From assembly GCA_035221665.1 (NCBI GenBank), contig CM069156.1, positions 14,694,001-14,758,000 of the forward strand: a DNA stretch of 64,000 nt, written 5' to 3'. Position numbers: made by a program. Positions 1 to 12,000 of the stretch are shown one piece after another. This stretch comes from Okamejei kenojei. Lineage: Eukaryota. Within the stretch, counting starts at the first letter, position 1. Every line of letters starts with the position of its first letter.

Positions 1-3000
1 GAATATTAAAAAAAAAAAATCCCATTACCAATATCACCTACCCATTTATGGAAATAGAATGCCACATTTCCAGTTCTTCACAAGCTAAAACCTCAAGGAA
101 TATTATCCATCATCTCCATGGGCATGTGGTGGAAGAATTTGCTTTTAATGAATCAATCTAACTTTTGAACTAAGTCATCTAAAGGGCCTGTCCCACTTTC
201 ACGACCTAATTCACGACCTTTTTTACTCGTGGACCTTTTTCCATCAGGCTAGAAAAACGCCCCGACCTACTTGATGCCACGAGTACCTACGACTAGCATC
301 ATGACCTACTTACGACCTACCTACAACCTCCTACGACCTCGTGATGACCATGCTGCGAGTATGAGTCAAGGGCAAACTAGGCAGAGGTGGTGAAATAGGT
401 CGTGAAAGTGGGACAGGCCCTTAATTCCTTCACGAGTGTACAGAACACGTGAACACTGTTAGCCTAACTGAAAGTTATACTGAAACTAATATGGTTGTAA
501 TCAATTTGATTTGAATCAATTTAGAAATTCAGTATTAACCAAAGAATGAATTATGTTTACATTCAATAGATAATAATTTTTTATCTTGTTCTGAACATAA
601 TGAGTTCTGGACAGTGAAAGTAAAATCAAAGAGTTAACAGTGTGTGCATGGTAATTGCAGGTGTAACTGGAGTTCGACCCAGCAGTGCTCCTCTGACTCC
701 CCAACCAGGTACCATTATTACTGCTAAATAACTAGCATGTTGTTGAGTATTCTGGGTCCAGGGGTAGGTTTTATTTATGGAAGTGAAAACTGTAATATTA
801 TTTAAAGTGGTTCCTGTCCCATATGCATTGAAAGGAACCATGAAACCAGAAATGTTTCATAGACATATAACAGTCATACAAAACTTTTTAAAAAAGTGTT
901 CATGTTTGGTGCAGAGAAGATGTACCAACATTTCATAGGAGCAATTCCACTGAAGATGAAAACAGTCACGTTTAAAATCTTAACTCCAGATACTGGCAGT
1001 GGAAGAAGTGAATAATGTCAAATTAAACCTGAAAAATGTTGAATTCTTTGTTGCTGTAGCTGCTTTTAAAATGAAATGATCCATGAATAGGAAATTGAAG
1101 TATAACATTGGAGATGCTCGAGTGTCATAAACGTTGCTCTCTGATTTTAAGATGGTCATTGGAGATAACAATAGTCGCAATGAAACAAGATTTATCTCCA
1201 AACTATATTGGATGTTTGGTGGATGAAACGTACCATCTGACCATCCCCTCCCTGCCATTTACTCCACTCTAGGATTCATTTGCATCAGGCTGGTTGGTAG
1301 AAACTGAGTATCATGTGCTGCTTGTCAGTTCTAGGCCATCACAATATAAGATGATGGCCCTATAATGCGGCAGTGGAATGTCATATTCAGGGAAAGGCCC
1401 AATTTGAGGAAGGGGAAACCAATGTTAAAGACTAATGTGAGCCAAAATGAAAAAAAAAAGCCTTTTGAGAAATCTTCAGCTGAATACTCCTTTGTGCTTG
1501 TTAAGAGTGGACATAACTACTGATCAGTAAGCAAAAACCAGAGCCTCTGGCAGCAATGGATAATAGGTCATTAAAAGTTCTTTTTTGGATGCTACTTCAA
1601 ATCTCCAAGAGAAAATTCGACCTTTACAAGAATTTACTCCCTTAAATGATATTACTCTTTGTTTTTTTATGAACAGGTGGAGTGCAGCCAGATTTTGGTG
1701 CTAAAGCAGCCAAGCAAGGTAATTGAAATTCGTTTAATGGGAAATTTCTAGTTGTCCCTCTTGAATTATTAGGTTTACGACATCACCCTGGTAAAGAAAT
1801 ACTCTTACAATGTTATTTCTATAAAACTACTTGTTTGACTCTCCACTATTAGTACATAACCTGAGGAGGCTGCCATGGATTATGTTGGCTCTCTTCAAAT
1901 TGTACAGCATATAATATTCCCCAATGAAATCACTCCATCTGCTGGACATATGTCCTCAGGAGTCAGCGATTGTAGGAGAACTACATATTGGCATTTGGAG
2001 CCAGGAATATAGAGAGTCTCCCTTGCACCCAGAATCACTTCCTCTCAGTAGCACTAACAGTGAATACTTTTTTCAACATTTAAGAACTCACATTTGTTTC
2101 TTAATGTCCTAAAATGTTTTACAACAATGGAGAACTTTTGAATTATAGTCAGTCATATTGTAAAGAATATGAGAGCTAATTCGCACACCCCAAACTCCCA
2201 CAAATATCAAAGACATAATACAATGTAATGCCTAGACATTCTGTTTTGCAGGGCAACATGTTCTGGTTGCTGTTCAATTAAATCTTATCACAAATCTGAT
2301 TGTGTACTTGGTCAAGGGAAGAGTGTTTCTGTCAATATGTTGCAGGACCTCTGTGCATACAATGCCAAATCCTTGTACACATTCAAGTCCCTAAATAGTT
2401 GAATGAAGCAGTTCTTCTAGATATTGGAGGCATGTTTGCCATTATTGAAGATGTCTAACCTTCCTTGTCACCCATCGAAGGAATCCAAGTAACTGTCAAC
2501 AAATAAGCTTCCTATAGATGATTCCTTTCCAACACCAGGTTCCAAATTCTTCCACCTCTCTGCGTCACGAGCAATGTCCACAGGGCTTTCTAATAGACTG
2601 CCAACTAATTAGAATAGCCAGAAATAGTGCAAAAAAGCTTTTATATCCAAACAAAAATGCAGATGGGATTTAAAATTGTCTCTTTTTTCTGCTTTGCTCC
2701 TCGCCACTTCTCTTTTTCAGAAGTCATGGGCCACAGATTCCCAGGGGTCAATGGGGATGTTTCATTCCTCAGGCTTGGAGAACATCCTTGAATATTTTCC
2801 ATTGTCCACCTGGTAGTGCCCTTCCATGGCAGAGATTGGATTAGAGCATTTCAGTGTTCTGATGTTGGTCATACAAATGTCATGGCACTGCTGGGGTTAT
2901 GGACCTGGAAGAGGACACTGGCATTGGTTTGCTTATCCTTCCTGTGAATTTGGAGTATTTTACAAAGATACCTTACGGTTTCTTGAGGTGGCTGCTGTAG

Positions 3001-9000: not shown

Positions 9001-12000
9001 GTCATGGTCTAAGGATAAGTCATGACTATCTCTCCTGGTTATGGATTCTCAAGTCAGAAGACGTTTCCCAGCATCCCTCATAGAATGCTTTGTCTTGAGA
9101 TTGTTTGTCATATTTCTAAACGTTAGTGATTTTGACTCAAATGTCCTTCATTGGACAACTCTCTCATTCCCAGGAATTAAGAAGTGATTATAGCTACATA
9201 TGTTAGTGGCATAAAACCACAACAAATCACTCTGATCAAGTGAATATAACTATACGTGTTAAAGTGGCATGGAACCAATCAAATCACTCTGATCACAACT
9301 CTACTTCTAACTGACACATGTGACAAATGTCAGACACTCGCATAATATTAAAGATATTCAGTATCTTATTTGATATAATCATTTCAAATTTAATTCTATC
9401 AAATCTTTAATAGCAGCTGTTTTCTATAGGTGTTGGCTAAGCTAGAAATAATTTTGTCACCAATTGAATCTATTTTCTTTGTTTCTGAAGGCTCCCCTTG
9501 TGCAATGGGCAAATACTGTGGCAGAAGGAGAAAATAACCAACTATTGGGAAAAGAAGTGACCTCAAGAATTCTGGTGCTACTGCTTGATTTGGAATGTAA
9601 AGGATGGTGTGTAATGGAACTTCTCAGCTCCATCCCTTTCCCCCAGATACACCTTTCGATCCCCCATTTCATCTACATGTGTTATCAATATCTAATGGAT
9701 TTTTTTTAATCAAGGAAACTCTGTAATATGTTGTGTGCTTCAAGAGTTTAGGGACCAGTTTACAGCTGAGTCTTTTGCTGTTAATCTCAGTATTAATTAA
9801 CACCATCCTTGACTTGATTTGTTTTATTTTGTGACAATGTCTCCAGTATTTTTAAATTATAAAAATGGTGTTATTAATTTTCAGTTGCTTGGGCTTTGCT
9901 TTACAAAATGTACTGTGAGCGATGCCTGGATTATATAGCTGGGTAGTAGCTCCATCCACCCCTACCATAATATTTGGTGCTAAAAAACAATTTTTGAGAG
10001 TGGCAGCTGTATTCATACAAATGATGGCTCAACTGATGCTGGGACCTGAAGTAACCAATGCAACTTTCACATGTTATAGTTCTACATGTTTGTGCACATG
10101 GCTGCCAAGACTTTGCACATGGAGGCCAAATTACCTTCCTGGCCAGAATATTCCTGGAGAGATTGATTTGATATTTTTTTTTAAGTTTATGCAAGCTGAG
10201 AGACATTAGGACAGATATTCCTTGTCTTCCACTCAAGGCTTCTGATGTTCATATGCACAGAAAACAAGTGCCAGCTATCTTACAGGTGTGTGTATCTCCC
10301 CGTCTGATTTTCCTGTATCCATTGCACATACATGACTCAATAGCCCCAGGTTCAGGAAAATCTGCCCCAGAGTAATAAAACATGAATTACTTCACCATAG
10401 GCATGGTGTGGCCAGACGTTTACTACCTCCAGGATTAGGATTGTTGAATGAGCTCCATACGTTTCAACAATCCAATTACCTCCACAGCTAGTTTTAACTA
10501 AGATTTTTTATATTATTGATGTCCTCTTAGAATTCTTCCAACTGAGTTAATTGCATAACATGTATCCAGGTTACTTTTATTTTGAATTTGAATAATTTTC
10601 CTAATCTGTTCCAGTTTATAAATTTTCCCTGGATTAGAAATACAATTTAATTGTCTTGCTGTTTAAAGATTGATCACTGTACATGGTGTTGTGAATCCCT
10701 GTGGCACTACATTGTATCTTGGGCATCATCTTTGTAAACAACTATTTAAAAATGAGAGGTTATTTGAACAAAATCGTGCACAATTATTGAATTGCATGCA
10801 AATCCAAGCTGTCTGACTTGTGAAAATGCAGAAGCCCACCAAAGCCACAATTGTTAAATCTATTATACCTTCCGGTTTCTGATCCTTTCCTCTGGTTCCA
10901 CTTTCTTGGACTATTTTTCTGTTTTAACTGTTTCTGGTGGAAATTATGATTTTCAATTTTCTTGAAAATAGTGTGGAGAGCAACTTGATATGAGCACCTT
11001 AAGTGTTCACAGAAGCAAATGCTGAACAGTTTCTACTTTTATTGCAACTCACCACTTTGTCCTGCAACTCTTTTAATAAATGAGATTGCTTGAAATTATG
11101 CTGTCATATGTAATACTTTACATCAGTTCTGTTGTAATAAACATTGTAGCAGAACTTGAGCCCCAACATTAATGTATTGCTTCAGATTTGGTGTAATGAC
11201 CATCCGCTGTATCTTCGTAAACCCTGTGACTCAAATACAGGATGAATAATAATTCAGTACTTGCTTTTAAAATAAACAAAATTGTTTACTTTAATTTTAG
11301 TACGTAAATCATTGAACACTGAATAACAACATCAGAATGAATGGGGGAAAAAACTTTAATTTCTGCACAATTCATTTTATGTGGCCAAAACCAATGCAAT
11401 CCACTATTCTGTATTTGCACACAATTAACTATATTGTGAATAGCCATAAAATTATGAATGAATAACACAACTGTACAATGAGCAACCCCTACCCTACTGT
11501 CAGGGTCTTCAAACAACTACAAAATGGTTAATACTTACACAAGAAAATCTGCAACAGTGAAAGAGAAAACTATCATTTATATTTGTTTTATTTGAGCCCA
11601 ATATAAACTGCTTTAAAGCCAATTAATCACTTTTAAACTGAAACTGGTAACTTGCTCACAGGTAGGCCCTGCATTAACACAAAATGAACAGATTAACCCA
11701 GAAATAAGATGCTAAAAAAATGTTTCAGAAATATAGAACACCAAAATGGGCTCTTGGCCCCACCCTGATGCCAAGATCAACTCGTCTCATCTACCTGCAC
11801 AATCCATATCCCTGTATATCCATGTACCTATCTAAAAGCATTCTAAGGGAGCTAAGGTCTTGGAACCCACGATCCCTCAGCACATCATACAAACTGCATT
11901 ACAGTATTCTCCCAAATACACTTCTTTCTCTTAGTGGGCAAAGAGACACAGATGACAGTAACAGCAAACATGCAATAGGTAGATGTGGCTGCAATATCTG

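What the first reader, a model, noticed from the sequence alone, without database searches (positions are those of the whole stretch)
661..9537. Hidden elastin 3' end made of 42-60 nt exons missed by the ORF track
Seen: five short exons with AG/GT boundaries, all phase 1, join into a G-rich peptide with KAAK that ends CAMGKYCGRRRK*. Established: tropoelastin exons are symmetric phase-1 cassettes, and its C-terminus has two Cys plus a basic tetrapeptide; elastin is regarded as a jawed-vertebrate innovation. Inference: this is a cartilaginous-fish elastin, one of the earliest-diverging lineages with the gene, and automated annotation could easily miss it. The pre-terminal exons are more polar and aromatic (Q, Y, D, R) than the VPG-rich mammalian ones.
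Basis: partly seen in the sequence, partly recalled or inferred. Interest (0 to 1): 0.72.

Follow-up and report, generated by a model that had tools for sequence, protein, structure and literature searches.

The report
Skate elastin gene's last exons

Summary
The five short exons are in the sequence at the stated coordinates, each flanked by AG and GT and all in phase 1. The last ends in two Cys, Gly, four basic residues and a stop. That motif is expected 1.8e-4 times per window and appeared in 0 of 200 simulated windows.

Exons 2-4 (1677-1718, 3409-3456, 5131-5190) are the only Gly-rich phase-1:1 cassettes with usable splice signals among 9 such candidates upstream of the last exon. Exon 1 (661-708) has weak splice signals and one Gly, so it is unproven.

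A complete LIMK1 gene follows on the same strand, 9.2 kb after the stop. This is the published eln-LIMK1 synteny. LIMK1 matches skates and rays best, with Amblyraja radiata first, so the window is batoid and not human.

The 3'UTR has miR-29 8-mer sites at +36 and +438 and a miR-181 site at +56.

Identity as tropoelastin is well supported. Novelty is low: a 2025 survey covered eln in 51 jawed fishes, cartilaginous ones included. No orthologue or RNA evidence could be obtained, and the joined peptide was never built or searched.

The parts
661..708 (+). Candidate eln exon, 48 nt, phase 1:1, Pro/Ser-rich (VTGVRPSSAPLTPQP). Weakest member of the chain.
   Evidence: One search gives coordinates, frame and AG/GT. 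One search gives polypyrimidine 0.47 and donor GTACCA, below the 0.71-0.88 range of 11 approximate LIMK1 acceptors. It fails the composition filters.
1677..1718 (+). eln exon, 42 nt, phase 1:1. KA-type cross-linking domain (GVQPDFGAKAAKQ). It also holds one TGGTGCTA at 1696.
   Evidence: It passes the strict cassette filter, with polypyrimidine 0.71, CAG and GTAATT.
3409..3456 (+). eln exon, 48 nt, phase 1:1. Gly-rich hydrophobic domain with F and Y (LGQRGAGGFLPYYQP).
   Evidence: It passes the strict cassette filter, with polypyrimidine 0.76, CAG and GTAAGG.
5131..5190 (+). eln exon, 60 nt (or 57 nt from 5134, tandem TAG-CAG acceptor), phase 1:1. Gly/Tyr-rich domain (GVRAGYGDGTGQLGYLQAA).
   Evidence: Polypyrimidine 0.59, donor GTAATG.
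9491..9537 (+). Terminal coding exon (counterpart of domain 36): SPCAMGKYCGRRRK plus stop TAA at 9535-9537.
   Evidence: The acceptor has polypyrimidine 0.82 and AAG.
9538..10379 (+). Inferred proximal 3'UTR up to the first AATAAA (10374-10379, 837 nt after the stop). It holds miR-29 8-mer sites at 9573-9580 and 9975-9982 and a miR-181 7mer-A1 site at 9593-9599. Further AATAAA lie at 11075, 11136 and 11271.
   Evidence: The motif definitions come from PMC3031556 and PMC11317165. The extent of the UTR is inferred and not shown.
18694..63611 (+). Complete LIMK1 coding region: 16 collinear matches to thorny-skate LIMK1 residues 1-639. This is the syntenic downstream neighbour. The start codon is at 18694.
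   Evidence: Pfam finds LIM and Pkinase. PDB matches score LIMK1 above LIMK2: 74.7 against 66.7 bits, and 98.6 against 74.9 bits.

Best explanation
Window 661-~10.4 kb is the 3' end of the single tropoelastin gene (eln) of a batoid, that is a skate or ray.

What the exons encode. Short phase-1:1 cassette exons each encode one protein domain:
- a KA-type lysine cross-linking domain (AKAAK), the kind of site that lysyl oxidase converts into covalent cross-links;
- two Gly-rich disordered domains containing Tyr and Phe;
- the conserved C-terminal domain, whose Cys pair and tetrabasic tail are the part of tropoelastin credited with matrix and cell interaction during fibre assembly.

Because every border splits a codon after its first base, mostly a Gly codon, any exon can be skipped without changing the frame.

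The 3'UTR. It carries miR-29 seed sites and a miR-181 site just after the stop. This is the arrangement described for amniote tropoelastin mRNAs and implies post-transcriptional shut-off.

Shown: the coordinates, phases, motifs, LIMK1 synteny and taxon affinity.
Inferred: the actual splicing, the extent of the UTR, the function of the miRNA sites, and the biochemical roles, which are taken from the mammalian literature.
For: 1. Exon anatomy and phases.
2. Terminal-motif rarity: expected 1.8e-4 per window, 0 of 200 simulations.
3. Exons 2-4 are the only elastin-like entries among the 9 phase-1:1 candidates with acceptable splice signals in 1-9490. Exons 2 and 3 are the only 2 of 5286 candidates on both strands of the 64 kb to pass the strict filter.
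4. The LIMK1 start is at 18694, 9,156 nt after the eln stop and on the same strand. PMC12554196 places eln about 12,000 bases upstream of LIMK1 and uses that to find unannotated eln. PMC12733013 reports eln/septin4-5/limk1 synteny in the jawed-fish genomes it examined.
5. The LIMK1 PDZ-region exon is 97% identical to Amblyraja radiata and 93-96% identical to four other rays. The next hits are at most 77%. Over the whole gene the ranking is the same.
6. TGGTGCTA occurs at +36 and +438 of the 3'UTR. About 2.2 copies are expected in the whole window on both strands, which is roughly 0.008 expected in 445 nt by my arithmetic. GAATGTA occurs at +56.
7. The first 45 nt of the mouse Eln 3'UTR also hold a miR-29 site (PMC3031556). 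Amniote eln has a miR-29/miR-181 pair within a 56-base block that starts 16-25 nt after the stop (PMC12554196).
8. The first AATAAA lies 837 nt after the stop. The same paper gives about 1000 nt for amniotes other than archosaurs.
Against: - No sequence match to any annotated tropoelastin was obtained. The only exon whose in-frame ORF reaches the 40-aa minimum (exon 3, 3375-3506) gave 8 word-sharing candidates, none with E<=10.
- The 35-aa ORF holding the terminal exon hit 2 of 1.84 billion representatives at E<=0.001. Both are unrelated repeat proteins, not elastins.
- No transcript evidence exists here for any junction.
- Exon 1 has poor splice signals and is not Gly-rich.
- The stem-loop that amniote 3'UTRs are said to form is not predicted. 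The minimum free energy is -9 kcal/mol, z = +1.64, and 197 of 200 shuffles fold at least as well.
- On its own the miR-181 7-mer is no rarer than chance: 9 found in the window against 9.7 expected.
- Septin4/5, named in the published synteny block, is not in the window.
Confidence: 0.92

Rival explanations
1. The gene is eln, but the five-exon model is partly wrong. Exon 1 (661-708) is not a real exon, exon 4 begins at 5134, and/or a non-Gly-rich exon in the 4.3-kb last intron was missed.
For: Exon 1 has polypyrimidine 0.47 and donor GTACCA, outside the LIMK1 acceptor range, and 1 Gly in 15 residues. There are 280 open phase-1:1 AG..GT segments in 1-9490, so one more is expected by chance. Exon 4 has a tandem TAG-CAG acceptor.
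Against: At 48 nt, exon 1 has the length reported for repeated hydrophobic exons of a ray eln (PMC12733013). It ends Pro plus split G like exon 3, and its leading GT would complete a Gly codon. No better candidate lies between 1 and 1676, and none with elastin-like composition lies in 5191-9490.
Confidence: 0.4
2. A decayed elastin remnant or pseudogene next to LIMK1, no longer expressed.
For: No expression data. No orthologue match was retrieved. One exon has weak splice sites.
Against: All frames are open, and the GT/AG borders and split-codon phases are intact. The terminal motif and the miRNA sites are preserved. PMC12733013 reports that all non-teleost genomes it examined contain a single eln gene in this synteny block, so this locus would be the only copy.
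Confidence: 0.03
3. Chance ORF-lets in AT-rich intergenic DNA; no gene at all.
For: Short open AG..GT segments are very frequent: 2692 on the + strand.
Against: The terminal motif is expected 1.8e-4 times per window and appeared in 0 of 200 simulations. It lies exactly where eln is expected relative to LIMK1. Three Gly-rich cassettes with good splice signals cluster only here. Two miR-29 8-mers lie in the first 445 nt after the stop.
Confidence: 0.01

Closest known systems
Tropoelastin (ELN/eln) of jawed vertebrates, especially the single eln of cartilaginous fishes surveyed in PMC12733013 (lesser devil ray, smalltooth sawfish, catshark, epaulette shark, elephant shark)
   Same: - Short exons of 36-60 nt that each encode one domain.
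- Phase-1:1 borders.
- A KAAK cross-link motif.
- A Cys-pair and tetrabasic C-terminus.
- Position directly upstream of limk1 on the same strand.
   Different: - Only the last five exons are in the window.
- The tail is RRRK, not the RKRK given for amniotes.
- There are five residues, not four, between the two Cys compared with the human peptide printed in PMC9656458.
- The first candidate exon is Pro/Ser-rich rather than Gly/Val-rich.
- No direct alignment to a ray or shark tropoelastin could be made here.
Amniote tropoelastin 3'UTR regulatory block (miR-29 plus miR-181 sites just after the stop; PMC12554196 section 5.5; mouse Eln miR-29 sites in PMC3031556; zebrafish elna as a miR-29 target in PMC5304403)
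   Same: - A miR-29 8-mer at +36 and a miR-181 7mer-A1 at +56.
- A second miR-29 site further downstream.
- All of these lie before the first AATAAA, which is 837 nt after the stop.
   Different: - No stable stem-loop pairing the two sites is predicted.
- No miR-15 family site (TGCTGCT) lies in 9538-11400.
- The amniote alignment itself (Table 2 of the paper) is not in the held text, so base-by-base conservation was not compared.
LIM domain kinase 1 (LIMK1) of Amblyraja radiata and other batoids (the neighbouring gene)
   Same: All 16 coding segments are collinear with residues 1-639. Exon 1 is 100% identical over 21 residues.
   Different: The match is not identical throughout, with 81-100% per segment and segment ends running into introns. 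The window therefore comes from a related batoid, or the listed protein is a cluster representative. The species was not pursued.

Membership tests
Tropoelastin (eln) | C-terminal domain with the protein's two Cys and a terminal tetrabasic motif | tested here: met
   C-x5-C-G-RRRK-stop at 9499-9537. The feature is defined in PMC12554196 and PMC12733013.
Tropoelastin (eln) | [quoted passage not shown] | tested here: met
   The four upstream exons are multiples of 3 with a one-base 3' overhang and a two-base 5' start. The terminal exon starts with two bases that complete a codon. The rule is quoted in PMC12554196. The model was chosen for this property, so only exons 2-4, which also pass independent splice and composition filters, count as a real test.
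Tropoelastin (eln) | Alternating hydrophobic and lysine cross-linking (KA/KP) domains, one per exon | tested here: inconclusive
   One KA-type exon (AKAAK) is followed by two Gly-rich exons. Five exons are too few to show alternation, and the rest of the gene lies outside the window.
Tropoelastin (eln) | Synteny: the next gene upstream of LIMK1 on the same strand, with a gap of about 12 kb | tested here: met
   The eln stop is at 9537 and the LIMK1 ATG at 18694, both on the + strand, a gap of 9,156 nt.
Tropoelastin (eln) | Proximal 3'UTR with miR-29 and miR-181 target sites upstream of the first poly(A) signal | tested here: met
   Sites lie at +36, +56 and +438, and the first AATAAA at +837. 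The associated stem-loop is not met. The feature is described for amniotes only.
Tropoelastin (eln) | Detectable sequence similarity to annotated tropoelastins | tested here: inconclusive
   The exon-3 ORF search found none with E<=10. The terminal-exon ORF search gave only two unrelated repeat proteins. Exons of 13-19 residues are too short for significance in databases of 10^9 sequences. The joined peptide was not built or searched.
Tropoelastin (eln) | N-terminal signal peptide and full-length, highly non-polar composition | not testable with these tools
   The 5' part of the gene lies upstream of the window.
Tropoelastin (eln) | Expression and splicing in elastic tissues | not testable with these tools

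The most novel reading that the evidence does not exclude
The paired miR-29 and miR-181 sites lie just after the stop codon, at +36 and +56, with a second miR-29 site downstream. In a batoid they sit at essentially the positions described for amniotes. If these sites are functional, microRNA-mediated shut-off of elastin synthesis would date back to the origin of elastin in the jawed-vertebrate ancestor, about 450 million years ago, rather than being a bony-vertebrate feature. A second, weaker point is that the batoid C-terminal flank may include a Pro/Ser-rich exon that is not elastin-like (661-708). My searches found no paper linking miR-29, elastin and cartilaginous fishes: all 10 of the 28 hits listed are unrelated mammalian or clinical work (the other 18 were not listed), and PMC12733013 has no mention of UTR or miRNA sites.
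Probability: 0.45. Interest if true: 0.35.

Novelty: already known. Interest (0 to 1): 0.15.

Why it matters
It matters little beyond correct annotation. Elastin is already accepted as present from cartilaginous fishes onward. Its tiny phase-1:1 exons are a recognised annotation hazard, and the published remedy is exactly what was applied here: look upstream of LIMK1 and check for the Cys-containing basic C-terminus.

The window is a clean worked example. It could help curate the eln model of this batoid genome, notably the doubtful exon at 661-708 and the tandem acceptor at 5131/5134. The one mildly interesting by-product is that the miR-29 and miR-181 sites in the 3'UTR appear conserved as far out as a skate or ray.

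Tried and rejected
2. I then used the only exon whose contiguous in-frame ORF reaches 40 aa (3375-3506, 44 aa, 'longer' lengths). It gave 8 word-sharing candidates, none with E<=10. The null is weak: an orthologue with a few substitutions in 15 residues would score above E=10 in 5.8 billion sequences.
3. An exhaustive phmmer of the 35-aa terminal-exon ORF (9430-9534) against 1.84 billion representatives gave 2 hits at E<=0.001. P0001 is a 17-fold repeat protein and P0002 a Gly-rich repeat protein. Neither ends in the motif, and I rejected both as summed chance matches.
4. The listing of cluster members on the top LIMK1 hit could not be made because the shared database was switched off. It therefore stays open whether this species' own proteome is in the collection.
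5. Rfam at gathering thresholds found 0 hits in 64 kb.
6. Folding the first 80 nt of the 3'UTR gave no stable structure, so I dropped the amniote stem-loop analogy.
7. I looked for further exons in 1-660 and 5191-9490. Only weak candidates with poor acceptors turned up (366-389, 6939-6968, 8261-8311), and I rejected them.
8. Literature text searches for the exact skate-type tail found 0 papers with that tail; all 5 matching papers carried the human-type tail (3 were listed).
9. Not done by rule: the exons were never joined into one peptide for any search, fold or alignment.
10. The bacterial/archaeal genome-contig collection and the phage, plasmid and E. coli collections were not used because they are irrelevant to a vertebrate gene.
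11. The third homologous-protein search, structure prediction, complex prediction and the ESM Atlas were left unused, because no query of adequate length existed for a disordered 13-19-residue domain.
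Full report
**What is in the sequence**

I read the five intervals directly and checked them by script. All five are flanked by AG on the 5' side, and the four non-terminal ones by GT on the 3' side.

| Interval | Length | Acceptor | Donor |
|---|---|---|---|
| 661-708 | 48 nt | CAG | GTACCA |
| 1677-1718 | 42 nt | CAG | GTAATT |
| 3409-3456 | 48 nt | CAG | GTAAGG |
| 5131-5190 | 60 nt | TAG | GTAATG |
| 9491-9537 | 47 nt, including TAA | AAG | none |

Each of the first four exons is a multiple of three. 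Each begins with two bases that finish a codon and ends with a single G that starts one, which is phase 1:1. Translated one at a time, the exons give:
- a Pro/Ser-rich 15-mer;
- a 13-mer containing AKAAK;
- a Gly-rich 15-mer with F and YY;
- a Gly/Tyr-rich 19-mer;
- a terminal 14-mer ending C-x5-C-G-R-R-R-K-stop.

I never joined the exons into one peptide or cDNA.

**Is it more than chance?**

Open AG..GT phase-1:1 segments are very common: 2692 on the + strand and 2594 on the - strand, with 280 in 1-9490 alone. Open frames with AG/GT ends therefore prove nothing by themselves. Three things do stand out.

- The terminal motif C-x(3-6)-C-G-[RK]4-stop is expected 1.8e-4 times in the six frames of the window. 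It occurs once, and in 0 of 200 first-order Markov simulations.
- A strict filter required a polypyrimidine tract of at least 0.6, YAG, a GTRA donor, a trailing G and Gly-rich elastin-like composition. Only 2 of the 5286 candidates on both strands pass, and they are exons 2 and 3.
- A looser splice filter leaves 9 candidates in 1-9490. Only exons 2, 3 and 4 have elastin-like composition. Exon 4 accounts for two of the nine, through its two alternative acceptors.

Exon 1 does not stand out. Its polypyrimidine fraction is 0.47, against 0.71-0.88 (median 0.76) for 11 approximately placed LIMK1 acceptors in the same window. Its donor is GTACCA, whereas 9 of 14 LIMK1 donors are GTRAG. It has one Gly in 15 residues.

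Exon 4 has a tandem acceptor, so it may begin at 5134. That start is also in frame and makes the split codon Gly, like the others.

**Surroundings**

Stop-to-stop ORFs showed recognisable LIMK1 pieces downstream on the + strand.
- Pfam finds a LIM domain at 36716-36997 and a kinase fragment at 57870-58202.
- Two kinase exons match solved human LIMK1 better than LIMK2: 74.7 against 66.7 bits, and 98.6 against 74.9 bits. They differ from the human sequence at many positions.
- The PDZ-region exon ORF (39427-39705) retrieved 283 proteins. The top five are all batoids: Amblyraja radiata 97%, Narcine bancroftii 96%, and Mobula hypostoma, Hypanus sabinus and Hemitrygon akajei 93%. The next hits (sturgeon, paddlefish, coelacanth, bichir) are at most 77%.
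- tblastn of the thorny-skate LIMK1 against the window gives 16 collinear matches covering residues 1-639, from 18694 to 63611. Exon 1 is 100% identical over 21 residues.
- Of the 23 LIMK1 proteins I chose from the 120 listed, the five batoids rank first.

The window is therefore batoid DNA and not human. The complete LIMK1 gene starts 9,156 nt after the putative elastin stop, on the same strand. The interval between the two genes holds reverse-transcriptase fragments (Pfam RVT_1 at 14135-14503). The three N runs (19272-19991) lie in LIMK1 intron 1 inside a TG-rich minisatellite, and I left them alone.

**Comparison with what is published**

I read passages and named sections of these papers, not whole texts.

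- PMC12554196 (Matrix Biol Plus 2025; passages and section 5.5) states several relevant points.
  - Domain 36 holds the only two Cys and ends in a tetrabasic motif.
  - Eln lies about 12,000 bases upstream of LIMK1, and unannotated tropoelastin genes can be found that way.
  - Amniote 3'UTRs carry miR-29 and miR-181 sites in a 56-base block beginning 16-25 nt after the stop.
  - The first poly(A) motif is about 1000 nt downstream in amniotes other than archosaurs.
- PMC12733013 (Genes 2025; passages, Results and figure legends) surveyed eln in 51 jawed fishes, cartilaginous ones included.
  - It used limk1 and septin4/5 synteny to find uncharacterised or misannotated genes.
  - It found a single eln in all non-teleosts.
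  - It describes a ray eln of 70 exons built from 36-nt and 48-nt units with 24 KAAK cross-links.
  - The word 'skate' does not occur in its main text. Its species table is a supplement I could not open.
- PMC9656458 prints the human-type C-terminal peptide. By eye the skate peptide matches it at 8 of 11 aligned positions, with one extra residue between the Cys and RRRK in place of RKRK.

**The 3'UTR**

The motif definitions come from two papers. PMC3031556 gives the miR-29 target as UGGUGCU(A), and notes a site within nucleotides 1-45 of the mouse Eln 3'UTR as well as sites in the coding sequence. PMC11317165 gives GAAUGUA as the miR-181 7mer-A1.

- TGGTGCTA occurs 6 times in the window, against 2.18 expected on both strands. 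Two copies lie at +36 and +438 after the stop, and one lies inside coding exon 2.
- GAATGTA lies at +56, but over the whole window it is no more frequent than chance: 9 found, 9.7 expected.
- The first AATAAA on the + strand after the stop is at +837.
- The amniote stem-loop is not reproduced: -9 kcal/mol, z = +1.64.
- Zebrafish elna is described as a validated miR-29 target with four predicted sites in PMC5304403, so regulation outside mammals is already known.

**What failed**

- Exons of 13-19 residues are below the 40-aa minimum of the large protein search.
- The one exon with a long enough contiguous ORF gave nothing at E<=10. The threshold cannot be raised.
- The exhaustive search with the terminal-exon ORF returned only two unrelated repeat proteins.

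As a result, no annotated shark or ray tropoelastin could be put beside these exons. Whether this genome's annotation already contains them is unknown.

**Mechanism**

Shown here: the exon anatomy, phases, motifs, synteny and taxon affinity.

Inferred from the tropoelastin literature:
- The AKAAK exon supplies lysines for lysyl-oxidase cross-links.
- The Gly-rich exons are disordered elastomeric segments.
- The Cys-pair and tetrabasic tail mediates matrix and cell interactions during assembly.
- Uniform phase 1:1 allows cassette skipping.
- The miR-29 sites allow post-developmental shut-off.

**Verdict**

The interpretation (elastin, cartilaginous fish) is supported and narrowed to a batoid.

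The C-terminal flank of amniote tropoelastins is also GG- rather than PG-dominated, so this is not a striking departure.

The gene family, its exon architecture, its synteny and its presence in cartilaginous fishes are all in print, so I rate the finding as already known and of low interest. The residual points of interest are the doubtful Pro/Ser-rich exon and the apparent deep conservation of the miR-29/miR-181 sites.

Noticed in passing
window 182-422: A 38-nt inverted repeat (arms 182-219 and 385-422, 95% complementary, 165 nt apart). It looks like a small hairpin or MITE-like element 240 nt upstream of candidate exon 1.
   Followed up: partly
window 4300-4674(-), 36495-36716(-), 40626-41021(-), 57113-57403(+): Four copies of the same LINE 3'-end ORF lie in eln and LIMK1 introns. 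Reverse-transcriptase fragments lie at 14135-14503(-), which Pfam assigns to RVT_1, and around 41166-41802(-). The copy at 36495-36716 ends 45 nt before a LIMK1 coding segment.
   Followed up: partly
window ~6646-7210: A purine-rich (+ strand) low-complexity block lies in the last eln intron. GC skew is +0.30 over 6001-8000. It gives long artefactual Pro/Ser/Leu-rich ORFs on the - strand.
   Followed up: no
window 18830-20127: A (TCCC)n tract at 18830-18909 lies just 3' of LIMK1 exon 1. A 22-26-nt TG-rich minisatellite at 19191-20127 surrounds the three masked N runs, which span 19272-19991. The N runs were not filled or looked up.
   Followed up: no
window 18694-63611: The whole LIMK1 coding region (16 segments) is in the window, and it is LIMK1 rather than LIMK2 by PDB scores. 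Septin4/5, named in the published synteny block, does not lie between eln and LIMK1 here. I did not look for it elsewhere in the window.
   Followed up: partly
window 1696-1703: A miR-29 8-mer match lies inside coding exon 2, spanning Gly-Ala-Lys codons. Coding-sequence miR-29 sites are reported for mouse Eln (PMC3031556). With a single copy here it may simply reflect codon choice.
   Followed up: no
whole window: Rfam at gathering thresholds finds no RNA family on either strand. AATAAA is over-represented: 96 found against 62.5 expected, in keeping with AT-rich, repeat-rich introns.
   Followed up: no
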